Source: a virus. From it: a stretch of 64,000 nucleotides of DNA. The translations under genes were made by a program, and so were the position numbers. Positions 1,935 through 59,897 of this stretch are shown in pieces. Each line of letters begins with the position of its first letter. The stretch's first letter is position 1. The stretch lies in the IMG/VR virus record IMGVR_UViG_3300027785_002095; one strand, given 5' to 3'. Under the pieces are notes generated by a model. That model did no database searches and was not told the origin of the DNA. It was given only the letters and a program-made list of their open reading frames with translations.

Positions 1935-1946
1935 TAAAATAACAAC

Positions 1947-2441
1947 ATGTTAGAATTTGTACACGAAACCCATCCAATATTATCAACACAATTACCAACC
2001 GTTGATCCTGCAATCAATGTAGAACATTTAAGCAAAGAAATGTTTATGATCATGTGGCTCAATGGAGGCATTGGGCTTGCTGCACCTCAAGTAGGTATGG
2101 CTGTTCGCATGTTTGTTATGGGCCCACAAAAAGGTCCTAACTATGTTTGCATCAATCCAGAAATTGTTGAGATTTCCAAAGAACAAGAAACTGCCACAGA
2201 AGGATGTTTATCGTACCCTGCTCTCTGGTTAAATATCAAGAGACCAACATGGGTACATGCTCGTTATACAACACTCAGCGGCGAAACGGTAGAACAAAAG
2301 TTTGACGGATTGCTTGCAAGATGTTATATTCATGAGCTAGAACATTTAGATGGAATTACATTTACAAAGTATAGTTCGGTGTTAGGTTTAAAACTTGCGC
2401 GAGCTCGTCAGCAAAAGAAATTACGTAAAATTAAAGGGTAA
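1947..2441 (+). CDS. def: peptide deformylase
   Basis: three PDF motifs GIGLAAPQVG, EGCLS and HELEHLDG in order. Confidence 0.85.
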   Translation: MLEFVHETHPILSTQLPTVDPAINVEHLSKEMFMIMWLNGGIGLAAPQVGMAVRMFVMGPQKGPNYVCINPEIVEISKEQETATEGCLSYPALWLNIKRPTWVHARYTTLSGETVEQKFDGLLARCYIHELEHLDGITFTKYSSVLGLKLARARQQKKLRKIKG

Positions 2442-2442
2442 T

Positions 2443-11906: not shown

Positions 11907-13427
11907 ATGGAATATATTGTAACGGTTGCAGACCCAAAAGTATGGGACACACTTTGGAGTGAACTAACAGAAAACGGTCTTGGAGATAACTTTATTCCCG
12001 ATCATGCTGTGCCTGTACTTAATGAACGTCCGTTCAATGACTACTCGGCTCACTTTGATTTAACAGATGAAGAAGCTGTTGAACTTAGAAATGACCCGCG
12101 AGTTGCCGCAGTAGAACTACAAGCTGACCAGCAGCCGGGTGTTGAAAAACGCTTCTATGGTCAACGAGCCGGCAACTACGATCGCAATCCTTATTCAACA
12201 ACTGCCTCAATGAAGAACTGGGGCTTGATGCGTTGTACGCAACAGAATGATCCTTACGGCACAGAAACAAGCCTCAACACCAACTTTAACTACAACTTAG
12301 ATGGCGAAGGCGTTGACATCATTATGTTGGATTCTGGAGTTGAAGCTGATCATCCCGAGTTCGCAGTTAATGCTGATGGCTCTGGTGGTAGTCGTGTAGT
12401 TGATTTTGACTGGGCTAGCCTTGGTGTTCCTGGTGTACAATCTTCAGCATCGTACGGCGGCTACTTGGGAGATAGTGATGGGCATGGTTCAAACTGTGCA
12501 AGTATTGCCGCAGGCAACACATGTGGTTGGGCACACAGTTCTAAAATTTATTCTATTAGAATTTTTGCTGGCACTAGTATTCGCACTGGACAATACCTAA
12601 GCGCCATCAATTCTGACGTTGCATTTGACTTGGTACGTGCATTTCACTTAAAGAAACAGGCAGAAGGTAATACACGTCCAACCGTATGTTCAAACTCATG
12701 GGGATATTATTCAAATTATTCAGGGATGACTTCAACAACCTATCGCGGGCAAACATATTCTGCTAGCTCTTACAATTCATTGTATGGGCAAGTAGCAGCA
12801 GTACATGGCGCAAGAGTGTACTACGTTGATACCGCTGTTGAAAACTGTGGTGCTGCTGGTGTTATCCTTATTGGTGCAGCCGGCAATTATCGTCACAAGA
12901 TTGATGTGCCAGGGGGCCAAGATTATAATAACTACTGGACAGGTTACTGGGGGCAATCTTACTATCACAGAGGTTCAAGTCCAACTGCTACTCCTTGTAT
13001 GATTAACGTTGGTGCAACTGATACTATGTTAACTAACCCGCCTGTTGAACGCAAGGCTTATTTTAGCGAAACAGGGCCGCGAGTTGACGTGTATGCTCCG
13101 GGCACTATGATTATGGGTGCTTATGCTAATTCGCCATATCAGACTCAAGCAGTGGCTGATTCACGTAACCCAGAATATTATCTTAATAAGATTTCAGGTA
13201 CAAGTCAAGCAACGCCGCAAGTGACTGGTGTTGTTGCTTGCTTTTTACAACTACGACCAAATTCAACTGTAAACAATATTAAAAAGTTTATTGCCGAAAA
13301 CAGTAACAAAAACAAATTGGCCGAAGGTGCAGTAAGCTGGACAAACTTGTATAGCTTACAAGGTGGAGCCAATAATTATCTATACACACCGTTCACTAAT
13401 CCAAGTCGTGGCAGCATAACAAGTTAA
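11907..13427 (+). CDS. subtilisin-like serine peptidase (S8 family)
   Basis: catalytic triad contexts in order: Asp IIMLDSGVEADHPEF, His DGHGSNCASIAAG, Ser SGTSQATPQVTGVVA. Confidence 0.75.
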   Translation: MEYIVTVADPKVWDTLWSELTENGLGDNFIPDHAVPVLNERPFNDYSAHFDLTDEEAVELRNDPRVAAVELQADQQPGVEKRFYGQRAGNYDRNPYSTTASMKNWGLMRCTQQNDPYGTETSLNTNFNYNLDGEGVDIIMLDSGVEADHPEFAVNADGSGGSRVVDFDWASLGVPGVQSSASYGGYLGDSDGHGSNCASIAAGNTCGWAHSSKIYSIRIFAGTSIRTGQYLSAINSDVAFDLVRAFHLKKQAEGNTRPTVCSNSWGYYSNYSGMTSTTYRGQTYSASSYNSLYGQVAAVHGARVYYVDTAVENCGAAGVILIGAAGNYRHKIDVPGGQDYNNYWTGYWGQSYYHRGSSPTATPCMINVGATDTMLTNPPVERKAYFSETGPRVDVYAPGTMIMGAYANSPYQTQAVADSRNPEYYLNKISGTSQATPQVTGVVACFLQLRPNSTVNNIKKFIAENSNKNKLAEGAVSWTNLYSLQGGANNYLYTPFTNPSRGSITS

Positions 13428-13430
13428 AGT

Positions 13431-14297
13431 TTGTTTTTGGTAAGTACAATAATGACACCTTATCAAAAAAGATACGGGCGGCCTGTTCCCGACCCAGAAG
13501 CTGTACCAAACGAGTTTGTAAACAATATACTACGCAGGGGTTCTTGCCGTACATTCAATGGTGAGCCACTCAAACCAGGGACGTTAGAATTATTGGTTGC
13601 TGCGGCTCAAAGTGCGCCAACAAGCGGTATGCTTCAAACTTGGAGTGTCATTGCATTAACTACCCCCGAAGAAAAAGCAAGCATCTATAAAAAGACTTTC
13701 TTTTCGCCAAACAATATACAACTAATAGGTGGAATTGATAGTCATAATGTAAACGCAATTGCGTCGTCAGCAGTTGTTATGATCTGGCTTGCTGATCTGT
13801 CAAGACTTAAACTTATTCTCAATAGCATTGATGTCGATGAACGTATTCGTGAACAGCCCACATTTGCCGAGTATCATTTAAAGGCTATAGTTGATGCTAC
13901 AATAGCTGCTCAAACGTTTTGTTTGGCTGCAGAGAGCATGGGCATCGAAGGTACATACTGTGGAGCAATACGACAATTACCTATGGAATTCTTTAAGACT
14001 ACTTTTAATTTACCAAAGCATACTTTTCCAGTCTTTGGTACTATACATGGTTATCCTGAATCAAAACAGCCTCCACTTGTCAAGGCCCGGTTGCCCAGCG
14101 AAATAGTGTTGCACCGTGGTACCTACACAAAAATGAAGTCCACTGATGAATTACAAGAATATAACAAAGTACATGCTCGAAACATATCAAAAAATGTTTC
14201 AAGTTTTGAATCCAGAGTAGTTGAAAGATTGAAACCAACGTATAGTAAAGAATCAATTGGCACAGCATTGCGCTATATGGGATTTGACTTCAAATAA
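13431..14297 (+). CDS. nitroreductase-family flavoprotein
   Basis: NILRRGSCRTFNGEPL...AAQSAPTSGMLQTWSVIAL matches the nitroreductase N-terminal signature (R-x-S-x-R-x-F ... AP-S-x-x-N-x-Q-x-W); likely ATG at ~13452 (track start is TTG). Confidence 0.6.
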   Translation: MFLVSTIMTPYQKRYGRPVPDPEAVPNEFVNNILRRGSCRTFNGEPLKPGTLELLVAAAQSAPTSGMLQTWSVIALTTPEEKASIYKKTFFSPNNIQLIGGIDSHNVNAIASSAVVMIWLADLSRLKLILNSIDVDERIREQPTFAEYHLKAIVDATIAAQTFCLAAESMGIEGTYCGAIRQLPMEFFKTTFNLPKHTFPVFGTIHGYPESKQPPLVKARLPSEIVLHRGTYTKMKSTDELQEYNKVHARNISKNVSSFESRVVERLKPTYSKESIGTALRYMGFDFK

Positions 14298-23814: not shown

Positions 23815-24504
23815 ATGAAACGAACAATTTATTTTGATACATTACAAACGCAATTAAGCGTAGACGCTAAAATTGCAATCAGCGACATTACCAGTAGTAC
23901 CATTGATGTAGTAGATTCTTGGCCAGGTCTTATGAGCCTGCTTTGTCAAGAACTCTGCCACAATGACAGTGTTGATCAGGATATTACTTTGGTGATATTC
24001 AACAAAGATTCACTTGCATTTCCCGGAACAACACTAAACGAAATAGTAGACGCAATTCGCACTATTTCTACCATATCCGGACCAAAGAAAGTAAGAATAG
24101 GAATTTTAATAAATGATAAATGTGAACAAAAGTTTGTTCAGCATTTAAAGAAAAGCAACATAAGCGGCATTGTACCAAATTTTAAAACGTTTGGGGATGC
24201 CGATTTCTTTGACGGCTTAAACACTTTATTGTCGGGTACTACACACTGGCCCGACGCATACATTGTTCAACGAATCAAATCATCTACTAGATCCACAGTG
24301 GAATACGGAATTCGGTTGACTGCACGACAACGTGAAATTATGACACTGGTAGCAAATCGAGGACTCAGCAATAAAAAGATTGCTCAAGTATTAAACATCA
24401 GTGAAAGTACTGTCAAGGTACATATCAGTTCTATTTTAAAAGCATACGGAGTCCGAAACAGAACTCAGCTGGCTCTGGCCGGTAACAAAGGGCTACACGC
24501 ATAA
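23815..24504 (+). CDS. LuxR-family transcriptional regulator (C-terminal HTH, atypical N-terminal domain)
   Basis: LTARQREIMTLVANRGLSNKKIAQVLNISESTVKVHISSILKAYGVRNRTQLA; N-domain lacks receiver Asp pocket. Confidence 0.7.
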   Translation: MKRTIYFDTLQTQLSVDAKIAISDITSSTIDVVDSWPGLMSLLCQELCHNDSVDQDITLVIFNKDSLAFPGTTLNEIVDAIRTISTISGPKKVRIGILINDKCEQKFVQHLKKSNISGIVPNFKTFGDADFFDGLNTLLSGTTHWPDAYIVQRIKSSTRSTVEYGIRLTARQREIMTLVANRGLSNKKIAQVLNISESTVKVHISSILKAYGVRNRTQLALAGNKGLHA

Positions 24505-24701: not shown

Positions 24702-25256
24702 ATGGCTGATATGCTAACAACTGATCCCTTCTTCGCTTTGACAAACCAGGTAGCTGGTGTACGTGAAAAGGTTTCTGATTCAATTTTTGAAAACTACAAA
24801 CTACAGGTCGCTCAAACAAACGACATCAACAACCGTGCTATGCAGGTTGCGCTACACGACTCCAGCGAACTAGCTAGCATCAAGCAAGAAGTTGCCAACA
24901 GCACACTTCAAACTATGTTGGCCGCAGCTCGCACAGACGCTGCAATTGGTGCAACAAGTGCTGCCGCACAACGCTTGACAATGGAGCAAGCAGAAGCTAC
25001 TCGTCGCTTAATCGTGGACTTGAACACACAAAACTTAAACACAGCATTGATCAACACAAACACAGCATTAACTGGTTTGGGCGTTCAATTTGGTGGCTTG
25101 GGTCTTGCTTATGGTGGCGCAGTAAGTGCTTACCAAAGTGCCAATCAAGTAAGCGCAGTAAACGCATTACAAAGCGCAATTTCTAGCCAAGGTCTAGTAA
25201 ACACTGGTACTATGACAGGTACTACACAAACTTCTACACCTACTAGCATCAATTAA
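24702..25256 (+). CDS. hypothetical protein (A/T/Q-rich)
   Basis: RBS AAAGGAAAATAAAATG; C-terminus SAISSQGLVNTGTMTGTTQTSTPTSIN recurs in the small ORF at 25546. Confidence 0.5.
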   Translation: MADMLTTDPFFALTNQVAGVREKVSDSIFENYKLQVAQTNDINNRAMQVALHDSSELASIKQEVANSTLQTMLAAARTDAAIGATSAAAQRLTMEQAEATRRLIVDLNTQNLNTALINTNTALTGLGVQFGGLGLAYGGAVSAYQSANQVSAVNALQSAISSQGLVNTGTMTGTTQTSTPTSIN

Positions 25257-25272
25257 TTAAGGAGATACTATT

Positions 25273-25491
25273 ATGTATAGATCCGGAATTATTGGGCTTG
25301 GTGGTTATGGCCGTCGTGGCTATTTGGCAGCAGGTATTGGTTATCCATACGGCGTGCTAGGTGGTTATGGCTTGGGCTATGGCTATGGTTACCCAGGCTA
25401 TGGTTATGGCCTAGGGTACGGAGGTTGTGGTTATGGCTTAGGCTGTGGCTACGGTGGCTACTACGGTGGCATCTCAGGCGGCTTGTTATAA
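25273..25491 (+). CDS. Gly/Tyr-rich low-complexity protein
   Basis: GYGRRGYLAAGIGYPYGVLGGYGLGYGYGYPGYGYGLGYGGCGYGLGCGYGGYYGG; RBS AAGGAG. Confidence 0.45.
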   Translation: MYRSGIIGLGGYGRRGYLAAGIGYPYGVLGGYGLGYGYGYPGYGYGLGYGGCGYGLGCGYGGYYGGISGGLL

Positions 25492-25501
25492 AATGAGCAC
25501 A

Positions 25502-25534
25502 GTGGGCCGACTCACAAGGTTGGCTCACTTTTTT
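25502..25534 (+). terminator. terminator-like hairpin GTGGGCC-N13-GGCTCAC + T6
   Basis: 7-bp stem with one G-U pair; T-run runs into the next SD. Confidence 0.45.
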
Positions 25535-25545
25535 AAGGAGTAAAA

Positions 25546-25719
25546 ATGTTTTCAGGTTATTATTATCCATTCTACAGAAGTTTTGCGTATCCGGGATTTA
25601 ACCCTTGGAGTTATAACGCCAACAACATCATTGGTAGCGCAGTGTCTAATCAAGGCTTTGTGAACACCGGCACCGCCGTGGGGGTAAATCAGATTTCCAC
25701 TCCAACAGTTATATGGTGA
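25546..25719 (+). CDS. small protein (57 aa) sharing a C-terminal motif with the 24702 ORF
   Basis: AAGGAG-N5-ATG; MFSGYYYPFYRSFAYPGFNPWSYNANNIIGSAVSNQGFVNTGTAVGVNQISTPTVIW. Confidence 0.35.
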   Translation: MFSGYYYPFYRSFAYPGFNPWSYNANNIIGSAVSNQGFVNTGTAVGVNQISTPTVIW

Positions 25720-25723
25720 TTAG

Positions 25724-26380
25724 ATGTACACAATAACACATACAAAATACGTTAATGGCCGGCTGGTAAAGCCCTTGGCAAGCGATCCGCTGCCAACAGT
25801 TGTCATTAATGAAAGAACTATGAACTTTCGCATGGACAATAGAACTCTATGGACACGTTATAGTTTAGGCATGATTAATTTTTCAGTTGCGCTATACAGC
25901 GGAATGGAAAGTGAAAATGTTTCGGAAAATTTAAAGCGGGCAGCATTTGCTTGCGGCAACTACTTTACACCATATTATGGTCTAAATGCTTCTAGAAAAA
26001 TTGGCAGCTTGTTAAGCGTCATTGTGTCCAATGGCGAGCGTGTGGCAGAATCACTAAAGACTGGCGCAGATATTGCTGCTTACGAAACTATATGGGACAA
26101 GCAAATCAATGAACTTGCAAATTACTTAAACGAGCTTAATCCCAATTATTGGCCCCGAGACACACTTGACGAAATGTTTATCAATTTGACAGCATTGTGG
26201 GTCGACAACTTCCGAGCCCGCTTGGCAAAAGATTTTGCCACTGATTCTGTTTCGCTTGACAACATTCTCAAAATTGCTGTGTCGGGCATACCAAATCATA
26301 TTCACAAAGGTTATACCAGCATTGCTGATCTGATCAGTCGCGGCATTATTGCACAGTCACCTTTAGAATTTTCGGTGTAA
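25724..26380 (+). CDS. hypothetical protein
   Basis: 218 aa. Confidence 0.5.
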   Translation: MYTITHTKYVNGRLVKPLASDPLPTVVINERTMNFRMDNRTLWTRYSLGMINFSVALYSGMESENVSENLKRAAFACGNYFTPYYGLNASRKIGSLLSVIVSNGERVAESLKTGADIAAYETIWDKQINELANYLNELNPNYWPRDTLDEMFINLTALWVDNFRARLAKDFATDSVSLDNILKIAVSGIPNHIHKGYTSIADLISRGIIAQSPLEFSV

Positions 26381-26383
26381 ATT

Positions 26384-26626
26384 ATGGCAATAATAAGCTC
26401 AAGTAAAGATGTAGAATTGACTGACTTAGAAGCGCATGTTGCGCTGTGTGCTCAGCGCCGTACTGCAACTGAGCTTAGAATAGATCATTTAGAAAGCAAA
26501 CTCAAATCCGCAGACGATCGAAGTGAACGTATTCGTAATATTATGCTGGGCGGGCTTATTTCCTTGGCGGCTGGTATCGCAGGCACAATATTTGCTGTGC
26601 TGTTTAAGCATGGGGTACTTCAATGA
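26384..26626 (+). CDS. small coiled-coil protein with C-terminal TM anchor
   Basis: MLGGLISLAAGIAGTIFAVLF at C-terminus. Confidence 0.45.
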   Translation: MAIISSSKDVELTDLEAHVALCAQRRTATELRIDHLESKLKSADDRSERIRNIMLGGLISLAAGIAGTIFAVLFKHGVLQ

Positions 26627-27147
26627 CAAATCAACAATTGGCCGAGCAACAGCGTCTTGGTGAAATATTGAAGTTGGCCCGAATGCAACTCAATGAAGAA
26701 TACATGAAGAGTCATTCAGCTGCTCATACTGCCTGGATCACTACAGCAAGAACTGCCTGGACTTCGGCTGGTACATTGATACCGTTTACTACAAAATTTG
26801 TTTACCCAACAGAAGAAGAAGTAGTTGCCCGTGGTGTTACAATTTATAACTCGCTAACGCAAAATACTGCGGTACCTAAACCTGAAGTATTAAGCAAACC
26901 AATGGATGTAGCCGTGGCTCCTCCTGCTGCAATTGAAATATTGCAAGCTGGGGGTGATATTGTACTTGCTGAAATTCCAGAAGAAGTAGTATGCGTAGAA
27001 GAGACTGCTGATCTAATAACAGATGTGGTAGCAAAAGAAGAAGTTGCCGCAGTCGAGCCAGTGGCCGAGCCAACTGTGACAGATTCGTTATTAGAAAACA
27101 AATTTAAAAGCCTATTCACCAAGTGGGGCGGCCGTGGAAATTATTAA
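26623..27147 (+). CDS. acidic hypothetical protein
   Basis: 174 aa. Confidence 0.45.
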   Translation: MTNQQLAEQQRLGEILKLARMQLNEEYMKSHSAAHTAWITTARTAWTSAGTLIPFTTKFVYPTEEEVVARGVTIYNSLTQNTAVPKPEVLSKPMDVAVAPPAAIEILQAGGDIVLAEIPEEVVCVEETADLITDVVAKEEVAAVEPVAEPTVTDSLLENKFKSLFTKWGGRGNY

Positions 27148-27159
27148 GGAAAACAAATT

Positions 27160-27594
27160 ATGATGTTTAACAATTTAGGCTTATACTCGTACTGGCAGTA
27201 CCGACGCCGTCGACCTGGACGAGTGGCAAGACGTGCTCCGGTCACACAAATCAGCAGCAGCATTGGCGGCTATGGCAATGATATTATCAATTTGGGCACT
27301 ATTACCAACGTGTCAATTGTACCTGTAACTGACGTTACTGTAACGCCGTACACACCGGGACCAACCGAATACTTTTTATGTGTTGATGTTGGCGGGCCAG
27401 CAACTGTTAGATTGCCAACCAGCGTGGTGGGCAAAGTATACGAAGTAAAAGATTGTGATGGCGACGCTGCCACTAACCCAATTACAATCACAGCAATAGG
27501 CAGTACCATAGATGGTGCGGCTTCTGCGACAATTAACGTTGACTACGGAAGCCTGAGCTTTGTGTTTAACGGATCAGAATGGAGTATCGATTAA
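27160..27594 (+). CDS. NPITIT-motif paralog 1
   Basis: C-terminal KDCDGDAATNPITITAIGSTIDGAASATINVDYGSLSFVFNGSEWSI shared with 28378 and 28788 ORFs. Confidence 0.5.
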   Translation: MMFNNLGLYSYWQYRRRRPGRVARRAPVTQISSSIGGYGNDIINLGTITNVSIVPVTDVTVTPYTPGPTEYFLCVDVGGPATVRLPTSVVGKVYEVKDCDGDAATNPITITAIGSTIDGAASATINVDYGSLSFVFNGSEWSID

Positions 27595-27830
27595 TGGCAA
27601 CCAAAAGAATGACAAGAATGGATGTTTATCCCGATGGTGACACAATTCCAAAAAATTTACCCGACAGTTACATGCCGGCTGCATACGGCGCACCAGCAGG
27701 ACAAAATTGCTTTACCTGCAGCCATTTTAGCTTGACAACTAATACACGCTTCTGCGAAAAGTGGGACGCACCTGTAAAACCCAAATGGTGGTGTGCAGCG
27801 TGGACAACTCTTTGGCCGACTAAACTATGA
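27594..27830 (+). CDS. HiPIP-like [4Fe-4S] protein, no signal peptide
   Basis: four Cys in C-x2-C-x12-C-x12-C; NCFTCSHF, FCEKWDAPVKPK, WWCAAWT parallel HiPIP CANCQF, GCQLFPGK, GWCASW; ATG overlaps upstream stop (TAATGG). Confidence 0.5.
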   Translation: MATKRMTRMDVYPDGDTIPKNLPDSYMPAAYGAPAGQNCFTCSHFSLTTNTRFCEKWDAPVKPKWWCAAWTTLWPTKL

Positions 27831-28378
27831 CATATAAATTACCTATTACTAATACTACCGAATGGGGAGTAATGAAGACCGGCACAGGTTTAACTGTGAC
27901 TGCTGGAGTAGTATCAGCAACCCTTGGCTTACTTAACTATGGCTTCTTCACTGACGGCACACAAATTAACCCAGTAGCAAGTGCTGTTAATCTAGTGACA
28001 TTTAACCTCACTGGGCCCGCAAACGGAATTAGCATTGTTGCAGGCACTCAACTCACTGTTGCCAATGCCGGCACATACAATACTGTGTTTACAATGAATG
28101 TGAACAAAACATCCGCTGGAGCAAGTACCATTACAATTTGGATGCGGCTGAATGGAGTTGACATTGTGGGTTCAACCCAAGATTTAATCTTAACTGGCGC
28201 ATTAGATACAATCTTTGTCACTGGTAATTTTACATTAGATATACCAGCTGGCGGAAATGTCGAACTATGCTGGAGCAGTGCAGACACTACTATGCAACTA
28301 CTAGCATTACCACCAAGAGTAGCGCCCATTAGACCTTCGGGCTCTAGCGCAAAAGTAACACTAACCAGGATCTCATAA
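27827..28378 (+). CDS. hypothetical beta-rich protein
   Basis: 183 aa, T/G/N-rich. Confidence 0.5.
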   Translation: MTYKLPITNTTEWGVMKTGTGLTVTAGVVSATLGLLNYGFFTDGTQINPVASAVNLVTFNLTGPANGISIVAGTQLTVANAGTYNTVFTMNVNKTSAGASTITIWMRLNGVDIVGSTQDLILTGALDTIFVTGNFTLDIPAGGNVELCWSSADTTMQLLALPPRVAPIRPSGSSAKVTLTRIS

Positions 28379-28746
28379 TGTCATTGAATCTATCAACAAA
28401 AATTGTCACCACAACCCCATATGCTGTTCTGAATACAGATCAAGTAATTTTTATCAATATAACATCTGGCGCTGCTTCGGTGGTACTACCATCAACTGGT
28501 AACGCCAATGGTGAAGACTGCTGCGGCGATGAAAGCAACGACAAAAAATACGAGGCTGGTAAGTCAACAGTACTAAAGCGTTCATTTTATATTAAAGATT
28601 TCAGCGGCACTGCTGCAACCAATCCAATCACCATTACATCAACAGGAGGAAAGACCATTGACGGCGGCTCCTTTGCATTGATCAATGGAGGATATGCCCA
28701 TATACAGGTAGTATATGATGGCACAAATTGGAAGATTATAAGTTAA
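28378..28746 (+). CDS. NPITIT-motif paralog 2
   Basis: KDFSGTAATNPITITSTGGKTIDGGSFALINGGYAHIQVVYDGTNWKII. Confidence 0.5.
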   Translation: MSLNLSTKIVTTTPYAVLNTDQVIFINITSGAASVVLPSTGNANGEDCCGDESNDKKYEAGKSTVLKRSFYIKDFSGTAATNPITITSTGGKTIDGGSFALINGGYAHIQVVYDGTNWKIIS

Positions 28747-28787
28747 TCTCCAAGTAAACTTAGTTAACAATATAAGGAAAAACTAAA

Positions 28788-29186
28788 ATGTCATATACAA
28801 ATAACCCCCGCTCTCTTATTGCAGGAACAGGTATCACAGTATCACCTACAACAGGAACAGGCGCAAACTCAGTAACTATCACTGCAAACGGACTTGCATT
28901 AGAGCCAGTACGTATTGCGCTAGTATCGCCGGATACTGTACTAGCAACCGACTCTATTGTAAGTTATCAACTTACAGTACCTGGCGCAGTTGCAGTAGCA
29001 TTGCCAGCTGGTATCACAGGCACTGTATACTATCTCAAAGATGGCACAGGTGACGCTGCTGTCAACCCTATTACTATTACTCCTAACTTGCTTGAAACGA
29101 TCGACGATGCTGCCACTGCAACTATCAACACCAACTACGGTGCATTGACATTGGTGTACACTGGCGCCAAGTGGGAAATCATCTAA
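28788..29186 (+). CDS. NPITIT-motif paralog 3
   Basis: KDGTGDAAVNPITITPNLLETIDDAATATINTNYGALTLVYTGAKWEII. Confidence 0.5.
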   Translation: MSYTNNPRSLIAGTGITVSPTTGTGANSVTITANGLALEPVRIALVSPDTVLATDSIVSYQLTVPGAVAVALPAGITGTVYYLKDGTGDAAVNPITITPNLLETIDDAATATINTNYGALTLVYTGAKWEII

Positions 29187-29238
29187 GGATTTACAATGAC
29201 GGAACACGATGTAACGTCAATGAATAAGGAAAAATAAA

Positions 29239-29886
29239 ATGTATAAGAAAATTACACATACAATCGTCGAAGAGCACTTCGACCACCCAATGGGCGTTGG
29301 AATTGCAGCCAACGTTGGTATGCCAAAGAGCATGCGTCACTCACTTGCTGAAATTATGCCAGCTGGACAATTTAAAACATTTGTTGACAATTACTTCATT
29401 AAATCTGAAGACGCCCTGATTGATTTGGCAAACGCAACATTTGACGAATCGCTTGACTTTCAAGCTGCATTAGCAAAAGCAATGGAGTACGAAGGACTTG
29501 GAGACATGCTTGAAAAGTATTATGATGTTGAATTTAAAGAACGTTTCAACCAACAGTTAAACAATGCAATCTTACAACTTCTGTTCTATTGGAGAAACAC
29601 TATTCGAAAATTTGATAATAAAGATACCTTGAATAGAATTAAAACTTCTGGATGGGCAGCAGGAATGTTGCTAAACCAATACAATAATTATTGGGACAGA
29701 GACATTGGAAGAACATTGTTTGATGATTTCTTCCAGGAACTTATAAATTTAGGCAATGCCAAATTTGCCAAGAATAAAGCAAATGAAACAGCAGCAATGG
29801 ATCGATTATCGGCTGCGGGATCAAAGTTGTCAAATTATATATCAACTGGTGCTATCCAAAATCATCCAGAGTTTTTTACTCCGTAA
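29239..29886 (+). CDS. hypothetical protein
   Basis: 215 aa; RBS AAGGAAAAATAAAATG. Confidence 0.5.
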   Translation: MYKKITHTIVEEHFDHPMGVGIAANVGMPKSMRHSLAEIMPAGQFKTFVDNYFIKSEDALIDLANATFDESLDFQAALAKAMEYEGLGDMLEKYYDVEFKERFNQQLNNAILQLLFYWRNTIRKFDNKDTLNRIKTSGWAAGMLLNQYNNYWDRDIGRTLFDDFFQELINLGNAKFAKNKANETAAMDRLSAAGSKLSNYISTGAIQNHPEFFTP

Positions 29887-30560
29887 TGCCGGGACAGCTA
29901 GTTGATCTAAGAGAGTGGGCCAGTCCTGTTGAAGAACAATGGCAACTGGGTAGTTGCACTGCACAAGCAGTAGTTGGTGCGTATGAACTATTGACTAAGA
30001 TGCACTACCCAGACCAAGCAGTTGACCTAAGCAGATTGTTTTTGTACTACAACGCTCGAAAGCTTTCTGGCGACATAAACGAGGACATTGGTGCTTATAT
30101 TTCAACTGCAATTGAAGCAGTCAAGATTTACGGGTTGTGCCGCGAAGATTTGTGGCCTTACGACACTGATAAATTTCGAGTAGAACCCAACTGGAAAAGT
30201 TATTTTGATGCTAGGCGTCGCACAATATCTAATGTGTACGAAATAACTTCACACGATCAGATTATCAACATGCTGGATAAACAATATCCTGTGGTGGTCG
30301 GTGTTGCTGTTTATTCTGGATTTAATCGAATAAGCAATCAATCAACAACGCTGAAACTGCCGCCATCTGCTGAAGAGTCCATGGGCAGTCATGCCATGTG
30401 CATAGTTGGCTATGACAATGTGCAACAAGCATTTTTATTACGAAATAGTTTCGGTGACGACTGGGGCGAAGGTGGCCATATGTGGGTTCCGTATGCGTAT
30501 GCAGACGCAAATTTCTCGGATATGTGGACCTTTGATATACTTTTAAAAAGTAGCATTTAG
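29886..30560 (+). CDS. papain-like cysteine peptidase (C1 family)
   Basis: QLGSCTAQAVVGAYE (catalytic Cys context), GSHAMCIVGYDN (His), NSFGDDWGEGGHMWVPY (Asn/Trp) in canonical order. Confidence 0.7.
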   Translation: MPGQLVDLREWASPVEEQWQLGSCTAQAVVGAYELLTKMHYPDQAVDLSRLFLYYNARKLSGDINEDIGAYISTAIEAVKIYGLCREDLWPYDTDKFRVEPNWKSYFDARRRTISNVYEITSHDQIINMLDKQYPVVVGVAVYSGFNRISNQSTTLKLPPSAEESMGSHAMCIVGYDNVQQAFLLRNSFGDDWGEGGHMWVPYAYADANFSDMWTFDILLKSSI

Positions 30561-37264: not shown

Positions 37265-37750
37265 ATGAAAAAACTTCTATTACTACTATTAATCCCAATT
37301 TGTGGCTATGCTGCCGAGTTGCAACATGGATTCAATAGCCCGTCGTTTTCCGGAATTGGTTACAGTACTCACATATTAACTATTAAACAGTTAGAAGACC
37401 AAGGCAAGCAAAATAACAAAAATGTAGCAGATTCATTGAAGGCGCAGGCCGAGCGTGATGCTGCTACAAATCCACAGGCACAGTTCGTTGCCAATCTACA
37501 AGCCCGCATATACTCGCAATTAGCAAAACAATTAACTGATAGCTTATTTGGAACAGCTGGTACTCCAGCTTGCACCAGTGCAACTGCTGGCGCAGTGTGC
37601 GGAGAGATTCCTGATATTGCTGGCAATAACATTACTTGGAAACTTGGCGTAGGTGCAGACACTGGTATGATTGTAATCACTATCCAGAATCTAACCGATA
37701 GTTCTCAGGTTACTATTATGAAGGTACCAAGCGGTACGTTTGCATTTTAA
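37265..37750 (+). CDS. csgF: CsgF-like curli assembly protein
   Basis: signal peptide MKKLLLLLLIPICGYA; mature AELQHGFNSPSFSGIGYS vs E. coli CsgF GTMTFQFRNPNFGGNP; QARIYSQLAKQLTDSLFG vs QAIQSQILGGLLSNI. Confidence 0.6.
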   Translation: MKKLLLLLLIPICGYAAELQHGFNSPSFSGIGYSTHILTIKQLEDQGKQNNKNVADSLKAQAERDAATNPQAQFVANLQARIYSQLAKQLTDSLFGTAGTPACTSATAGAVCGEIPDIAGNNITWKLGVGADTGMIVITIQNLTDSSQVTIMKVPSGTFAF

Positions 37751-38573
37751 TATGATCAAACTTATAGTATCCTTATTAGCAGTGCTTTTAGTAAGCGGGT
37801 GTGCGTCAACATCTATTATTAAAGGAAAACTAACCAATGAACAATTTGATGCTCCTGTGGTAGAACAGAACATATATCTAAAACAACAAAGCGGCGACTT
37901 AGCAGGACCAGCTGGTGGTCCATTAACTGTTGCAGTATATGGCTTCAAAGACCTAACAGGGCAACGTAAAAGTTTAACTAACATTGCAAGTTTAAGTTCG
38001 GCTGTGACACAAGGAGCAGAGAACTTTTTAATTAAGTCGTTGCAGGACGTTGGCAGTGATAAAAAATGGTTCATTGTTGTTGAACGTGTTGGCTTAGAAA
38101 ATTTAATTAAAGAGCGTCAGATGATTCGCCAGATGCGTGAGCAGTATCAGGGTAAAGATGCAAAGTTGTTACCACCAATGATTTTCGCTGGAATCATTAT
38201 GGAAGGCGGTATAATTGGTTATGATTCAAATACACTAACAGGCGGCAATGGATTTCGATTACTGGGCATTGGCGCATCAACTCAATACCAAAGTGATACT
38301 GTTACAATAGTTCTTAGAACAGTGAGTGTAAGTACCGGCGAAGTGTTAACGTCGGTTACAATTACAAAAACAGTATTAAGCTATATGGACAAACTGGGAG
38401 TATTAAAGTTTGTCAACGTAGGAACCGAGGCAGTCGAAGCAGAAGTCGGAACCAGTGTAAATGAAAGTATCAATAAAGCAGTGTCTGTTGCTATTCAAGC
38501 CGCTGTTGTAGATACTATTAAAGAAGGCGCTCGTAAAGGGCATTGGGGATTCGCAAAAGAATCAATAAAGTAA
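37740..38573 (+). CDS. csgG: CsgG curli secretion channel lipoprotein
   Basis: lipobox LLVSGC; LTVAVYGFKDLTGQRK, KWFIVVERVGLENLIKERQMIRQMREQ, IIMEGGIIGYDSNTLTGGNGFRLLGIGASTQYQSDTVTIVLRTVSVSTGEVLTSVTITKTVLSY are colinear with E. coli CsgG. Confidence 0.85.
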   Translation: MHFNMIKLIVSLLAVLLVSGCASTSIIKGKLTNEQFDAPVVEQNIYLKQQSGDLAGPAGGPLTVAVYGFKDLTGQRKSLTNIASLSSAVTQGAENFLIKSLQDVGSDKKWFIVVERVGLENLIKERQMIRQMREQYQGKDAKLLPPMIFAGIIMEGGIIGYDSNTLTGGNGFRLLGIGASTQYQSDTVTIVLRTVSVSTGEVLTSVTITKTVLSYMDKLGVLKFVNVGTEAVEAEVGTSVNESINKAVSVAIQAAVVDTIKEGARKGHWGFAKESIK

Positions 38574-39427: not shown

Positions 39428-40534
39428 ATGAAGCTACTGCTAATTGCATTGTTGCTTATTAGTCACAGTCCACTTCATGCAGGGCCTGCTATTGGTGCAG
39501 TGTCAGAAAATAAAGGAACCAGCTGTGAAATCGAGCGCGGCTCATCTAAATTATCTGGACTTAAAGGTGCCGCAGTTGAAAGCATGGACACATATCGCAC
39601 TGGCGGGTGTGTTAGCGATATTGTATTCAAAGATGATACCAAGGTTAAGATAACAGAAAATAGTCGCTTGGTAATCGACGACTTTGTGTACGATCCAAAG
39701 AAGGGTGATGCGGGCAAGTTGGTAATGCGAGTAGGCATGGGCACTGTTCGTTATGCGTCGGGACAAATTGCCAAACAAAATCCACAACAAGTTTCCATTA
39801 AGACGCCCACTGCAAATATTGCAGTTCGCGGCACAGACTTTACAATGACAGTTGACGAGACTGGTCGTAGCCTTGTGGTGCTGCTACCAAGTTGCAAAGA
39901 TCAAATTGATGTTAAGACATATGAGCTTGAGGAGAATCGTTGTAGAGTTGGCGAGATACTTGTTTCAACTGGGGCAGGCGATGTACTATTGTCACATCCG
40001 TTCCAGGCCACATACGTTATAAGCAATTCTGTAGCGCCATCTACTGCATTTATTATGCAGACTGTTGAAAGTAAACTAAACAATAATTTAATACTTGCAC
40101 AGCCCAAAGAAGTTGGCCGAGTACTTCGTGACGTGTCGGGTAAGACTAAACGTGACGAAGAATTGGAAGCATTAGAAACAGAGGCTGCCCGTCGATTAGC
40201 ACAGGCAGTATCAGACAAGCGAGAAGATCTTGAACACGCACGAATTTTAATATTAGAAGATATGGCAGTAAAAGCTGGTTGCAATTCAGCAACTAGCGTG
40301 TGTGTCAGTTGGGATAATCCGTCTGAATCAGCAATACAAAATCGTGGCAAAGGTATAGCATTCCGTAATACTGAAAATACGCACTATGCCGAAGTTAAAA
40401 CACAAGGCTATGCATCAAACACCACGGTTGCAATTAGCCACAACGATGTTGCAGCTTCAACTATCATTGGTGACGGCAGTGTTGGCGGGAATGTGATTAG
40501 TATACTTCAAAACGTTGGAGTAGCAAAGAGATAA
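39428..40534 (+). CDS. secreted protein with FecR-like beta-sandwich block
   Basis: signal peptide MKLLLIALLLISHSPLHA; QVSIKTPTANIAVRGTDFTMTVDETG. Confidence 0.5.
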   Translation: MKLLLIALLLISHSPLHAGPAIGAVSENKGTSCEIERGSSKLSGLKGAAVESMDTYRTGGCVSDIVFKDDTKVKITENSRLVIDDFVYDPKKGDAGKLVMRVGMGTVRYASGQIAKQNPQQVSIKTPTANIAVRGTDFTMTVDETGRSLVVLLPSCKDQIDVKTYELEENRCRVGEILVSTGAGDVLLSHPFQATYVISNSVAPSTAFIMQTVESKLNNNLILAQPKEVGRVLRDVSGKTKRDEELEALETEAARRLAQAVSDKREDLEHARILILEDMAVKAGCNSATSVCVSWDNPSESAIQNRGKGIAFRNTENTHYAEVKTQGYASNTTVAISHNDVAASTIIGDGSVGGNVISILQNVGVAKR

Positions 40535-40697
40535 TGGGCGAGCTACATCTGTTACACATGTATCAGGCCTGGCAGCAAGGCAATGATAACTATGCACGTG
40601 ATTGGCAAAGATTTGTCAGTCTGGCCGCAGTATGGAACAATACATCGTCGGACAACCTGCTATGTGAATTGAAAAAGTACAATTGGTTCAAAACATG
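40533..40697 (+). CDS. small coupled ORF (54 aa)
   Basis: TAATGG overlap with upstream stop and ATGA overlap with the downstream start. Confidence 0.25.
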
Positions 40698-41627
40698 AAA
40701 CTTTTATTTTGTTGGATACTGATGTTTGTTACATCATTGAGCACCGCAGCTACAGTGTCACAGGCAATGAATGTAAGCAGCCAGGGCAGCGACTACATAT
40801 TTGTTTATCGTGGTAATAACCCAACCGAATTTGATGCGCTGATAGCATATAATCCAGTTGGATGGACTGCTACATGTAGCTCAGGGCAGGCATGCACAGG
40901 ACAAACAGCTACAATTATTAGTTGGGCAAGACCGGATCCAGATTACTTGTTTTTATACACAAAGAACAGCGACGGCACTGCATATATTCCCTCTTCTGGT
41001 GCATATTATTCATTCTCAAGTCCACCTGCTGCATGTTGCAGTGCTGGATCACCATCTGTCTTTGTGCCAAACAGCTATAATACAACTCGACTACAAACAT
41101 ATAATAGTAGGCCCATTGACCAGCGTAATGCGCAGATATACATTGAACAAATTGGATCAAATAATATCACTACAATTGAGCAGACCGGGACTAAAGATAA
41201 CCATGCAGAGTACGCCAGCAATGGTAATAACAATACTGTAAACATTTTACAAACAGGCGATGCTACTACCTCAAACTACACAGATCTTGGAATAATTGGC
41301 AATGCCAATACAGTGTCAATTACGCAACAAAGCACGGGCGGAATCAAAGGTGCGTTTGTAAAAATAAATGACAACAACAATAGCTTATTATTATCACAAA
41401 AAGATAGCGGTAGCCATTATGCAGAAGTAACACTAAGCGGCAGCAACAAGAATGTAGATATTTTACAGCAAGGTTCTGCAGGCCATGTGGCAAGTGTAGG
41501 CCTAACTGGAAATCCAACTGATTTAAGTTTAACACAATCTGGCTCAACACAGCACTTCTACAGCATACAATTCAATTGTGCCACAGCAGGTGGTTGCGCT
41601 AAGATTACAGTCCAACAAGGACAGTAA
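40683..41627 (+). CDS. secreted curlin-repeat protein 2
   Basis: signal peptide MKLLFCWILMFVTSLSTAATVSQA; repeats NAQIYIEQIGSNN, ITTIEQTGTKDN, NTVNILQTGDAT, NTVSITQQSTGG, VDILQQGSAG, LSLTQSGSTQ; likely ATG at ~40695. Confidence 0.6.
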   Translation: MVQNMKLLFCWILMFVTSLSTAATVSQAMNVSSQGSDYIFVYRGNNPTEFDALIAYNPVGWTATCSSGQACTGQTATIISWARPDPDYLFLYTKNSDGTAYIPSSGAYYSFSSPPAACCSAGSPSVFVPNSYNTTRLQTYNSRPIDQRNAQIYIEQIGSNNITTIEQTGTKDNHAEYASNGNNNTVNILQTGDATTSNYTDLGIIGNANTVSITQQSTGGIKGAFVKINDNNNSLLLSQKDSGSHYAEVTLSGSNKNVDILQQGSAGHVASVGLTGNPTDLSLTQSGSTQHFYSIQFNCATAGGCAKITVQQGQ

Positions 41628-45115: not shown

Positions 45116-47167
45116 GTGTTAAATTATAGTATGAAAAACTTTATTCCCGGTCCATTGAGTATTGCTTGGGTAGCAGTTACGGCTGTTATACTTGTGGCAT
45201 TAAAAATCTCTAACCCTGTGCCTGTTGAAAGCATTCAACTCAAAGGCTTTGATGCACTACTGTCAGTTGACACTCCTGTTGATTCTGATAGTGTTGTTAT
45301 AGTCGACATCGGCGAAGCCAGTATAGAACGCCAGGGACAGTGGCCGTGGCCTCGGCGAGACCTAGCTCGAGCAATTGAACAAATACAAGAACTGGGTGCT
45401 GCCGCAATTGTTGTTCCTGTTATTATGAGTGAAGCAGACCGTTTTGGCAGCGATCGAGATCTAGTTAAAGTACTTGGCCGCACCAACAGTGTTATTGCCC
45501 AAGCACCTACTACGCAAAACAAACGTCCTGACGCAGTTCGTCGTGGTGTTGCTGTTATAGGTGGTAATCCGTTAGAATGGGTGTACTCTTGGCCTGGCGC
45601 ACTAAGTCCTTACCGGCCATTGGCTAATGCAGCCGCTGGAGTAGGTACAACTGTTGTTGCTCCTGAAGTAGATGGTGTTGTTCGACGCATGCCACTTATT
45701 GTGGGCGTAGGCGAAGAAATTTATCCCAGCTTGCCATTAGAAGCACTTCGTGTTGTTACTGGACAACAAAGTTATCAAGTTAAAATGAGTTCAGCAGGAA
45801 TTGAAAAAGTTCGTATTGCTGGACAACCTGTTATCACCACAGACGAACGTGCCAGAATCTGGTTGCGTTGGAACAAGAACTTCACACGCTATGAACTATC
45901 TGAATTGGCCAATAAAAACGTAAATCTGCAGGGTAAAGTGGTAGTGTTAGGCTTGTCAGTAGAAGGCCTAGGTGGTATTATTGCTACACCGCGTGGTGAA
46001 GCCTGGGCACACGATATTCAAGCACAAACTGTACAAACATTGCTTGACGGTGATAGCCCTGTACGCCCTGCATTTGCCAATGCAATCGAATTGATAACAA
46101 TTGTGCTTATAGCGTTTCTACTAATTTTCGCGATGCCTAGATTGCCTTTTTGGGCAGTGGGCACAGCACTATTTGCAACCATTGGCAGTGTTGTGTGGGG
46201 TAGCTTTTTTGCGTGGAGCAACTATAGTCAACTATGGGACATTTACTCTTTAACGTTTGCAGCCATTGTACTGTATGGGCATGCACTATTTGCACGTTTC
46301 GTACAAGAGTTCAAGCAAAAGCAACAAATCAAGAAACAGTTTGGTACATACCTAAGCCCTGCACTGGTTGCTAAACTACAGAAGAATCCAGAGCTGTTAC
46401 AGCTAGGTGGCGACGAGCGCGAGTTAAGTATTATGTTCACTGACGTTCGTGGCTTTACTACAATCTCAGAACACTATGGTCGGGATGTACAAGGACTTAC
46501 CAAGATTATGAATCGTTACATGACTGCAATGACTCGCAAGATCATTGACAATAACGGCACATTAGACAAGTACATTGGTGATGCACAGATGGCATTTTGG
46601 AACGCACCAGTTGACGAAGCACGTCACGCACATATGGCTGTTAAGACAGCATTAGAAATGATGGAGAGTTTAGATGAATTTAATCGTGAAGTTACAGCAG
46701 AAGGTATACCAGCTTTTGGTATGGGTCTTGGGATTAATAGCGCAGTTGTTGTGGTCGGTAACATGGGATCTGATCAGCGTTTTGACTATACTTGTCTGGG
46801 CGATGGCGTCAATCTTGCGTCCCGCCTTGAGGGACAAAGTAAGCCTTATGGCGTTAGAATTGTACTGGGACAGCGAACTGCTGAATTGGTTCAGGACCAA
46901 TACCCGACGATAGAATTAGATTGCATTGCAGTTAAAGGTAAAACAGTTGGAGTAAGAATCTTTACATTAGGCACTACCAATATTACCCTGCATGACACAT
47001 ATTTGCAAGCATACTACCGTGGCGATTGGACTCGTGCTATTCGTCAATGTGAAAAGTTAATTGGTTTAGATAACGAACTAAAGCAGTATTACGAAAATAT
47101 GCTGGAACGTATGCGTGAAGGCTTGCCAGCTAATTGGGACGGCACATATAGAGCAACAAGTAAGTAA
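45116..47167 (+). CDS. CHASE2-sensor class III adenylate/guanylate cyclase
   Basis: N-terminal TM + extracytoplasmic CHASE2-like region (GQWPWPR), later TMs, cyclase core FTDVRGFTT...DKYIGDAQMAFWNAP...GINSAVVVVGNMGS...YTCLGDGVNLASRLEG. Confidence 0.75.
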   Translation: MLNYSMKNFIPGPLSIAWVAVTAVILVALKISNPVPVESIQLKGFDALLSVDTPVDSDSVVIVDIGEASIERQGQWPWPRRDLARAIEQIQELGAAAIVVPVIMSEADRFGSDRDLVKVLGRTNSVIAQAPTTQNKRPDAVRRGVAVIGGNPLEWVYSWPGALSPYRPLANAAAGVGTTVVAPEVDGVVRRMPLIVGVGEEIYPSLPLEALRVVTGQQSYQVKMSSAGIEKVRIAGQPVITTDERARIWLRWNKNFTRYELSELANKNVNLQGKVVVLGLSVEGLGGIIATPRGEAWAHDIQAQTVQTLLDGDSPVRPAFANAIELITIVLIAFLLIFAMPRLPFWAVGTALFATIGSVVWGSFFAWSNYSQLWDIYSLTFAAIVLYGHALFARFVQEFKQKQQIKKQFGTYLSPALVAKLQKNPELLQLGGDERELSIMFTDVRGFTTISEHYGRDVQGLTKIMNRYMTAMTRKIIDNNGTLDKYIGDAQMAFWNAPVDEARHAHMAVKTALEMMESLDEFNREVTAEGIPAFGMGLGINSAVVVVGNMGSDQRFDYTCLGDGVNLASRLEGQSKPYGVRIVLGQRTAELVQDQYPTIELDCIAVKGKTVGVRIFTLGTTNITLHDTYLQAYYRGDWTRAIRQCEKLIGLDNELKQYYENMLERMREGLPANWDGTYRATSK

Positions 47168-57436: not shown

Positions 57437-57465
57437 TAAATACATTTAATAAGGAATCATAATTT

Positions 57466-59151: not shown

Positions 59152-59163
59152 CAGGAGATTAGT

Positions 59164-59796: not shown

Positions 59797-59811
59797 GTAA
59801 TATTAACACGG

Positions 59812-59855
59812 CCCCAACCTCTGCGGATTAATTACCCAAGCACGTTGGGGTTTTT
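59812..59855 (+). terminator. terminator-like hairpin (CCCAA-gcacg-TTGGG inner; CCCCAAC...GTTGGGG outer) + T5
   Basis: read directly after the lysozyme stop; GGCCGCAAATTC follows. Confidence 0.5.
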
Positions 59856-59897
59856 CTTGGCCGCAAATTCTTTAACAGCGCATATAATAAATAAAGT

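What the first reader, a model, noticed from the sequence alone, without database searches (positions are those of the whole stretch)
27594..27830. HiPIP-like iron-sulfur protein gene lacking a signal peptide
The 78-aa product has exactly four cysteines, spaced C-x2-C-x12-C-x12-C. The flanking motifs NCFTCSHF, FCEKWDAPVKPK and WWCAAWT mirror the HiPIP motifs CANCQF, GCQLFPGK and GWCASW, and a Tyr lies in the N-terminal part.

Cellular HiPIPs are periplasmic and Tat-exported; this copy has no leader. It is translationally coupled (TAATGG) inside a run of structural-looking paralogs.

A HiPIP in this context would be a redox auxiliary gene with an unusual cytoplasmic location.
Basis: partly seen in the sequence, partly recalled or inferred. 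Interest (0 to 1): 0.6.

Follow-up and report, generated by a model that had tools for sequence, protein, structure and literature searches.

The report
Leaderless HiPIP-like iron-sulfur module in phage
This small gene from an uncultured large freshwater phage encodes a four-cysteine protein with the fold of bacterial high-potential iron-sulfur proteins, and it belongs to a large, unstudied phage family whose members are repeatedly fused to particle-building proteins and to the iron-storage protein Dps, which points to a built-in metal-cluster module and not a free periplasmic electron carrier.

Summary
Window 27594-27830 (+) is a real, strongly constrained 78-aa gene (dN/dS 0.05-0.14) with exactly four Cys. 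The spacing is C-x2-C-x11-C-x12-C, not x12/x12. It has no hydrophobic leader and is translationally coupled on both sides.

On its own it misses the Pfam HiPIP threshold (13.7 bits against 22). It does belong to a family of at least 168 clusters, 153 of 154 domains with all four Cys, and that family is demonstrably HiPIP-related:
- The family profile finds only HiPIPs in the PDB (13 top hits, best E 9.7e-5).
- hhalign gives 95.8% probability.

The "redox auxiliary gene" reading is not supported. The domain carries a family-specific N-terminal extension (YPDGxxIPxxLPxxY). It occurs fused to phage portals, protease/scaffold-capsid proteins, tail spikes, Dps and homologues of this gene's own neighbours.

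Best reading: a cytoplasmically assembled, probably oxygen-tolerant [4Fe-4S] module of virion-associated proteins. Metal identity and virion location are inferred, not shown. I found no published description, only automatic "HiPIP profile" names on some phage proteins. I rate it a new variant of a known kind.

The parts
27594..27830 (+). HiPIP-like gene, 78 aa, leaderless
   Evidence: ORF and translation. Orthologues at 69-82% identity. dN/dS 0.05-0.14. AF2 pLDDT 89 with a HiPIP fold.
27627..27671 (+). Family-specific N-terminal extension YPDGDTIPKNLPDSY (residues 12-26). Tyr26 is invariant; Tyr12, Leu22 and Pro23 are at least 90% conserved.
   Evidence: Alignment A2. This part does not align by sequence with cellular HiPIPs: PDB matches start at profile position 26-31.
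27696..27806 (+). Cluster-binding core (residues 35-71). Cys codons lie at 27708-27710, 27717-27719, 27753-27755 and 27792-27794. Aromatic residues Phe45, Trp57, Trp65/Trp66 and Trp70 flank them.
   Evidence: All four Cys align to the ligand Cys of solved HiPIPs. hhalign gives 95.8% probability over residues 35-70.
27160..27594 (+). Upstream, translationally coupled gene (144 aa) with a gp9/gp10- and tailspike-like C-terminal domain. It is a conserved partner of the HiPIP-like gene.
   Evidence: phrog_20556 baseplate protein E 1.6e-6. The paralogue profile hits PDB tailspike chains at E 0.0045. P0042 fuses a HiPIP-like domain to a homologue of this gene. The same gene order is kept in the distant locus L017.
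27827..28378 (+). Downstream, translationally coupled gene (183 aa). It shows a weak BclA C-terminal (C1q-like fibre tip) resemblance.
   Evidence: PF18573 E 0.0056, below the cut-off. The ATGA overlap is visible.
28378..28746 (+). Paralogue of 27160-27594 (122 aa)
   Evidence: Alignment A4. phrog_20556 E 9e-6.
28788..29186 (+). Paralogue of 27160-27594 (132 aa)
   Evidence: Alignment A4. phrog_20556 E 3.2e-6.
25724..26380 (+). 218-aa gene of unknown function in the same operon, linked to the HiPIP-like domain through a fusion protein found elsewhere
   Evidence: P0030 is a HiPIP-like domain plus a homologue of this gene (tblastn E 2.7e-34).
29239..29886 (+). 215-aa gene whose N-terminal motif MYKKITHTIVEEHFDHP recurs next to HiPIP-like domains in relatives
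29886..30560 (+). Papain-family (C1) peptidase gene, the last gene of the tightly packed run
   Evidence: PF00112 E 6.6e-15. Conserved at this position in L001-L008.

Best explanation
The gene encodes a stand-alone copy of a phage-specific, leaderless HiPIP-fold domain. Four invariant cysteines sit inside a cage of conserved aromatic residues, as in cellular HiPIPs, and most likely ligate a buried [4Fe-4S] cluster inserted by the host machinery in the cytoplasm. The protein is not exported to act as a diffusible periplasmic electron carrier. It is made together with the neighbouring fibre/baseplate-like proteins and works as a compact metal-cluster module of an assembled, probably virion-associated, complex. 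In that role it would stabilise or dock the assembly, and possibly report or exploit redox or iron status.

Shown: the gene is real and constrained, it is homologous to HiPIPs, the predicted fold is HiPIP, it has no leader, and the fusion and synteny pattern is as described.

Inferred: the metal is Fe-S, the protein is present in the particle, and its role is structural or sensing.
For: **Homology to HiPIP**
- The family profile finds 13 HiPIP chains as the top PDB hits (best E 9.7e-5), with all four Cys and the flanking aromatics aligned.
- 56 of 112 members hit PF01355 at E<=1 (best 1.2e-6).
- 19 of 92 full-length proteins hit it at E<=1e-3.
- hhalign gives 95.8% probability.

**Fold**
- The AF2 model has pLDDT 89.
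- The Foldseek top 9 are all HiPIPs, probability 0.60-0.98 and at least 0.90 for seven of the nine.

**Constraint**
- 153 of 154 domains keep four Cys.
- dN/dS is 0.05-0.14.

**Assembly context**
- Fusion partners are portal (the C-terminus in P0040), protease/scaffold plus major head protein (P0061), tail spike (P0058), XkdF-type protease and capsid families.
- The cultured Pontimonas phage phiPsal1 has the domain in its annotated prohead protease.
- Fusions involve this gene's own neighbours (P0030, P0039, P0042).
- The gene is coupled on both sides.
- Synteny with the gp10-like gene is kept at 55% identity.

**Iron link**
- P0100 is a complete Dps plus a HiPIP-like domain.
- P0049 lies 7 nt upstream of a Dps gene.

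**Viral origin**
- Four related contigs are in IMG/VR.
- No relative was found in 185,579 species genomes.
Against: - No metal or spectroscopic data exist, and a Zn(Cys)4 site cannot be excluded by sequence.
- The window protein alone is below the Pfam threshold.
- Foldseek E-values are weak (0.07 or more) because the domain is small.
- Virion location is inferred from fusions in other phages. Those partners lie both inside the head (portal C-terminus, protease/scaffold) and outside it (tail spike), so no single structural position explains them all.
- No head, portal or terminase gene was recognised in this window.
- The neighbours' fibre/baseplate assignments rest on weak hits.
- Several 'head maturation protease' PHROG hits are caused by the HiPIP-like part of that profile itself.
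- The Dps link fits a redox or iron role better than a purely structural one.
Confidence: 0.55

Rival explanations
1. It is a soluble cytoplasmic redox carrier, an auxiliary metabolic gene. It would shuttle single electrons between host or phage enzymes during infection, and the HiPIP-like domains elsewhere are simply electron-transfer modules attached to enzymes.
For: - The HiPIP fold and ligand set are established.
- The phage genome carries redox and iron-dependent enzymes: TauD dioxygenase, a nitroreductase and two radical-SAM proteins.
- Dps fusion and adjacency suggest electron or iron traffic.
- The iron-oxidation HiPIP PioC is among the structural matches.
Against: - The gene is not next to any of those enzymes. 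It lies inside a coupled run of fibre/baseplate-like genes.
- Most recognisable fusion partners are structural proteins, not enzymes.
- From general knowledge of the family, HiPIP potentials are far too positive to reduce radical-SAM clusters.
- No known HiPIP partner occurs in 64 kb.
Confidence: 0.2
2. It is a structural zinc-binding (Cys4) mini-domain that only resembles HiPIP in shape. The four Cys would hold Zn, as in zinc ribbons used widely in phage proteins.
For: - Several BFVD matches are annotated as zinc-ribbon, TFIIS or rubredoxin-like proteins.
- Small Cys4 domains are often Zn sites.
- AlphaFold does not model cofactors.
Against: - The motif is CxxC...C...C, not two CxxC knuckles.
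- The aromatic residues that bury the cubane in HiPIPs (the F after CxxC, the F/W three residues after the third Cys, and W-C-x-x-W) are conserved across the family.
- The recurrent Dps association points to iron.
Confidence: 0.15
3. It is a virion-delivered effector. The domain would be packaged, through portal or scaffold fusions or as a small internal protein, and ejected into the host envelope. There it would act as a HiPIP in the periplasm without needing Tat export.
For: - Fusions to the portal C-terminus and to protease/scaffold regions would place the domain inside the head.
- Cellular HiPIPs act in the periplasm (general knowledge).
Against: - There is no direct evidence.
- Tail-spike and gp10-like fusions would not be ejected.
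- A covalently attached portal domain cannot leave the particle.
Confidence: 0.05
4. It is a chance ORF or a mis-called gene.
For: None beyond its small size.
Against: - 168 representative clusters match.
- dN/dS is 0.05-0.14.
- Synteny is conserved.
- The structure model is confident.
Confidence: 0.01

Closest known systems
Cellular high-potential iron-sulfur proteins (Pfam PF01355; e.g. Allochromatium vinosum, Rhodoferax fermentans 1HLQ, Rhodocyclus tenuis 1ISU, PioC 6XYV)
   Same: - The Cys pattern is C-x2-C-x(n)-C-x(12-14)-C.
- The aromatic residues next to the ligands match.
- The size is about 55-85 residues.
- The relationship is detectable at profile level.
   Different: - There is no Tat leader and no export.
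- A conserved N-terminal extension, YPDGxxIPxxLPxxY, replaces the HiPIP N-terminal segment.
- The protein is encoded by phages.
- It is often a domain inside large structural proteins.
- No photosynthetic, respiratory or iron-oxidation partner is nearby.
- The window protein scores below the Pfam cut-off.
HiPIP-like small subunits of glycyl-radical enzymes (benzylsuccinate synthase beta/gamma, 4-hydroxyphenylacetate decarboxylase gamma; Pfam PF18524)
   Different: Sequence similarity is much weaker: only 3 of 112 members touch PF18524 at E<=1. No glycyl-radical enzyme is nearby, and the biological setting is different.
Lambda gpL-type tail-tip proteins with a [4Fe-4S] cluster (general knowledge; cluster noted in siphophage tail structures, PMC10721106)
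   Same: They are the precedent for an iron-sulfur cluster carried as part of a phage particle protein, with a presumed structural or assembly role.
   Different: The fold and family are unrelated. No similarity to gpL was detected in the Pfam or PHROG scans. gpL is confined to the tail tip, whereas this domain moves between head, tail and Dps proteins.

Membership tests
HiPIP (PF01355) | Four Cys ligands in the order C-x2-C ... C ... C | tested here: met
   Cys39, 42, 54 and 67. They are invariant in 112 relatives and align to the HiPIP ligand Cys.
HiPIP (PF01355) | Score above the curated Pfam gathering threshold | tested here: not met
   The window protein scores 13.7 bits against a cut-off of 22, E 0.077. 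At family level 56 of 112 members hit at E<=1, best 1.2e-6. One relative has a precomputed PF01355 hit.
HiPIP (PF01355) | HiPIP fold | tested here: met
HiPIP (PF01355) | Aromatic cage around the cluster (Cv Phe48, Phe66, Trp76, Trp80 equivalents) | tested here: met
   The consensus CxNCxfY / CxkW / YWCxxW aligns to CANCQF / CQLF / GWCASW. The equivalence of Tyr26 to HiPIP Tyr19 was not verified.
HiPIP (PF01355) | Tat signal peptide and periplasmic location | tested here: not met
   There is no RR motif and no hydrophobic segment. In relatives the domain is internal or C-terminal in cytoplasmically assembled phage proteins.
HiPIP (PF01355) | [4Fe-4S]3+/2+ couple at high potential | not testable with these tools
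   This needs UV-vis, EPR and a redox titration.
HiPIP (PF01355) | Genomic or functional link to a reaction centre, bc1 complex, terminal oxidase or iron oxidase | tested here: not met
   None appears among the Pfam or PHROG hits of the 64-kb window.
HiPIP-like glycyl-radical enzyme subunit (PF18524) | Profile match and a neighbouring glycyl-radical enzyme | tested here: not met
   3 of 112 members hit at E<=1, best 0.014. No glycyl-radical enzyme is in the window.
Zinc ribbon / Cys4 zinc finger | Two CxxC knuckles on beta-hairpins | tested here: not met
Phage virion protein (structural) | Presence in purified particles | not testable with these tools
   This is inferred only from fusions and operon context.

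The most novel reading that the evidence does not exclude
Many uncultured aquatic phages build oxygen-stable HiPIP-type [4Fe-4S] clusters into their particles (portal, scaffold/capsid, fibres) and into phage Dps. The clusters would serve as redox or iron sensors that gate assembly, stability or infection. Alternatively they would be an iron cargo, making virions an overlooked pool of protein-bound iron in line with the 'Ferrojan horse' idea.
Probability: 0.2. Interest if true: 0.8.

Novelty: new variant of a known kind. Interest (0 to 1): 0.6.

Why it matters
- HiPIPs are textbook periplasmic electron carriers of phototrophs and iron oxidisers. A large, leaderless, phage-borne branch embedded in portal, capsid-maturation, fibre and Dps proteins would widen what this fold is used for.
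- It would add a second, much more widespread case of iron-sulfur clusters in phage particles, after lambda gpL.
- It would give iron biogeochemists a concrete protein to test for virion-bound iron.
- It is directly testable, because one cultured phage (Pontimonas phage phiPsal1) carries the domain.

Tried and rejected
**Searches that gave little or nothing**
- The single-sequence Pfam, PHROG and NCBIfam scans of the window protein gave only a sub-threshold HiPIP hit.
- The first AF2 run, with 10 close homologues, was poor (pLDDT 64.6) and was not used.
- tblastn of three family members against 50,697 phage records found only phiPsal1.
- Megablast of 12 kb around the gene, and tblastn of two neighbouring proteins, found nothing in cultured phages.
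- A scan of 185,579 species genomes found no relative of the close subfamily. The wider alignment was too diverse for that tool.
- The word-indexed search with the family alignment added little.
- Context look-ups for P0053 and P0067 hit contigs too short to be informative.
- Literature searches for HiPIP with phage, viral, portal or prohead protease terms, and for phage S-SRM01, found no description of phage HiPIP-like domains.

**Ideas tested and dropped**
- A second HiPIP-like domain in the window was suggested by P0047 but does not exist.
- Promoter and terminator scans were not above the shuffled background.

**Could not be done**
- I could not read the model coordinates, so the Cys S-gamma geometry was not measured.

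Full report
**The observation**

Window 27594-27830 (+) encodes a 78-aa protein: MATKRMTRMDVYPDGDTIPKNLPDSYMPAAYGAPAGQNCFTCSHFSLTTNTRFCEKWDAPVKPKWWCAAWTTLWPTKL. Its only cysteines are at 39, 42, 54 and 67.

The start ATG (27594-27596) overlaps the TAA of the upstream gene. A GGAG lies 9 nt upstream. The TGA (27828-27830) overlaps the ATG of the next gene. Public gene calls on identical metagenome contigs use the same 78-aa product.

The N-terminus has no twin-arginine motif and no hydrophobic segment.

The gene is under strong purifying selection. Against five orthologues from other contigs, dN/dS is 0.05-0.14, with synonymous sites near saturation.

**Relationship to HiPIP**

On its own the protein scores only 13.7 bits (E 0.077) against Pfam HIPIP, below the cut-off of 22. 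That match covers the Cys-containing two thirds of the model.

Nine close homologues (69-82% identity) keep all four Cys. A profile of these, run against 1.84 billion representative proteins, found 168 clusters at E<=1e-3.

They share the signature YPDGxxIPxxLPxxYxxA...GQxCxNCxfY...CxkWxAxVRxxYWCxxW. Of 154 domains, 153 keep C-x2-C-x(7-26)-C-x(11-14)-C.

A 112-sequence alignment (A2) gave these results:
- Searched against all PDB sequences, its 13 best hits are all HiPIPs (best 1HLQ, E 9.7e-5). The four Cys are aligned, and so are the aromatic residues that flank the ligands in HiPIPs.
- 56 of the 112 members hit PF01355 at E<=1, best 1.2e-6.
- A profile-profile comparison with four HiPIP cores gave 95.8% probability.

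With this alignment, AlphaFold2 produced a confident model (pLDDT 89, pTM 0.75):
- Foldseek against the PDB puts HiPIPs in the top nine places (probability 0.60-0.98, at least 0.90 for seven of them; TM 0.35-0.59).
- The other four are the HiPIP-like [4Fe-4S] small subunits of glycyl-radical enzymes.

The homology and fold claims are therefore well supported at family level. Cluster binding itself remains an inference.

**The family and its partners**

The N-terminal 25 profile positions, with invariant Tyr26 and near-invariant Tyr12, Leu22 and Pro23, do not align to cellular HiPIPs by sequence. They define a separate branch.

About a third of the representatives are stand-alone proteins of 54-110 aa. 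The rest are fusions in which the domain is N-terminal, internal or C-terminal.

Recognisable partners are:
- **Portal proteins.** P0040 has portal residues 19-418 and the domain at 450-515.
- **A protease/scaffold plus major-head-protein fusion** (P0061).
- **A tail-spike-like protein** (P0058).
- **An XkdF-type protease, a capsid family, DUF5824 and DUF6321**.

One caution applies here. The phrog_80 'head maturation protease' profile contains the HiPIP-like region itself, so some of those hits are circular.

The only cultured phage found with the domain is Pontimonas phage phiPsal1. There it lies near the N-terminus of the annotated 484-aa prohead protease, between the portal and the major capsid gene.

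BFVD structure matches repeat the same partner list. They also show that a few phage proteins already carry the automatic name 'High potential iron-sulfur proteins family profile domain-containing protein', among them one from Synechococcus phage S-SRM01. The paper describing that phage does not mention it. I found no paper on phage HiPIP-like domains.

A second recurrent partner is Dps:
- P0100 is a complete Dps (E 1e-14 to solved Dps proteins) with a C-terminal HiPIP-like domain.
- The stand-alone P0049 lies 7 nt upstream of a Dps gene.

**The local context**

The window is read almost entirely on the + strand. It encodes, among others:
- DnaJ and a ClpB-like ATPase
- a collagen-repeat tail fibre
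- a subtilase, a nitroreductase, UvdE and TauD
- a LuxR-type regulator and a Band-7 protein
- a GH19 lysozyme/chitinase
- CsgF/CsgG and a curlin-repeat protein
- FecR and a CHASE2 cyclase
- radical-SAM proteins

Related contigs carry GIY-YIG and NUMOD3 genes, reach 295 kb, and four of them are in IMG/VR. The close subfamily is absent from 185,579 species genomes. A large uncultured freshwater phage is the most likely source.

The gene lies in a tightly packed run, 24702-30560, in which it is coupled to both neighbours. Three genes (27160-27594, 28378-28746, 28788-29186) are paralogues with a gp9/gp10- and tailspike-like domain:
- phrog_20556 hits at E 2e-6 to 9e-6
- PDB tailspike chains at E 0.0045

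Fusion proteins from other contigs tie the HiPIP-like domain to this operon:
- P0030 joins it to a homologue of 25724-26380 (E 2.7e-34).
- P0042 joins it to a homologue of the upstream gene.
- P0039 joins it to the N-terminal motif of 29239-29886.

A relative only 55% identical keeps the same gene order. There is only one such domain in the window.

**Interpretation**

Taken together, this is a HiPIP-fold, very probably [4Fe-4S]-binding, module that phages make in the cytoplasm. They attach it, covalently or as a coupled small subunit, to oligomeric assemblies, mostly particle proteins.

I rate the fold and homology at about 0.9, Fe-S over Zn at about 0.75, and the virion-module reading of this particular gene at about 0.55.

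The HiPIP architecture buries its cluster among aromatic residues and is unusually oxygen-tolerant (general knowledge). That would suit a protein which must survive outside cells. This point is inference.

A redox or iron-handling role cannot be excluded, and the Dps link hints at one.

**Novelty and score**

The fold is known, and databases already tag some phage proteins with a HiPIP profile. The following appear undescribed: the size of the leaderless phage branch, its own N-terminal extension, and its systematic association with portal, capsid-maturation, fibre and Dps proteins.

I classify it as a new variant of a known kind, interest 0.6.

Noticed in passing
window 37265-38573 and 40683-41627: This phage-like genome encodes CsgF-like and CsgG curli secretion components (PF03783 E 3e-48) and a protein with a curlin repeat. 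A curli-type secretion system in a virus is unusual.
   Followed up: partly
window 24702-25719: The operon opens with three small genes.
- One is a 184-aa protein rich in Ala, Thr, Gln and Asn.
- One is a 72-aa Gly/Tyr-rich protein (GYGYG repeats, 25273-25491).
- One is a 57-aa protein that shares the C-terminal motif QG[LF]VNTGT...STPT with the first.

A 12-bp G+C-rich hairpin followed by a T-run lies at 25501-25529, right after the Gly/Tyr gene. These may be abundant fibre or amyloid-like components.
   Followed up: no
window 29239-29290; relatives P0033, P0034, P0037-P0039, P0089, P0128, P0152, P0172: The short motif MYK[KR]ITHxIxEEHFxHP recurs immediately before or after HiPIP-like domains in nine relatives. 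In the window it is at the N-terminus of the 215-aa gene, which precedes a papain-like peptidase gene. It may be a docking or processing peptide.
   Followed up: partly
L019 4580-5335; protein P0100: HiPIP-like domains are linked to Dps mini-ferritins in two ways: by fusion (P0100) and by adjacency 7 nt apart (L019).
   Followed up: yes
window 50089-51396: This 435-aa protein is 46% identical to P0047. In P0047 a HiPIP-like domain replaces the variable central segment. This is an example of the domain being shuffled into otherwise conserved phage proteins.
   Followed up: yes
window 1134-4656: A complete DnaJ gene (J domain plus C-terminal domain) and a ClpB/ClpA-like double AAA+ gene lie side by side. 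Together they would form a virus-encoded chaperone/disaggregase pair.
   Followed up: no
window 11907-14297 and 55946-62622: A subtilase next to a nitroreductase-family protein, and two radical-SAM proteins further on. Combined with the small Gly/Cys/Tyr-rich ORFs, this could indicate peptide-modification chemistry.
   Followed up: no
window 23815-24504, 39428-40534, 45116-47167: Signalling genes uncommon in phages are present: a LuxR/GerE-type regulator directly upstream of the operon (duplicated in relatives L001 and L008), a FecR-domain protein, and a CHASE2-adenylate/guanylate cyclase.
   Followed up: no
L008 15005-17834 and 1-292: A related contig carries TctABC tripartite tricarboxylate transporter genes and a DctP-type solute-binding gene in the same region. 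This shows variable metabolic cargo between relatives.
   Followed up: no
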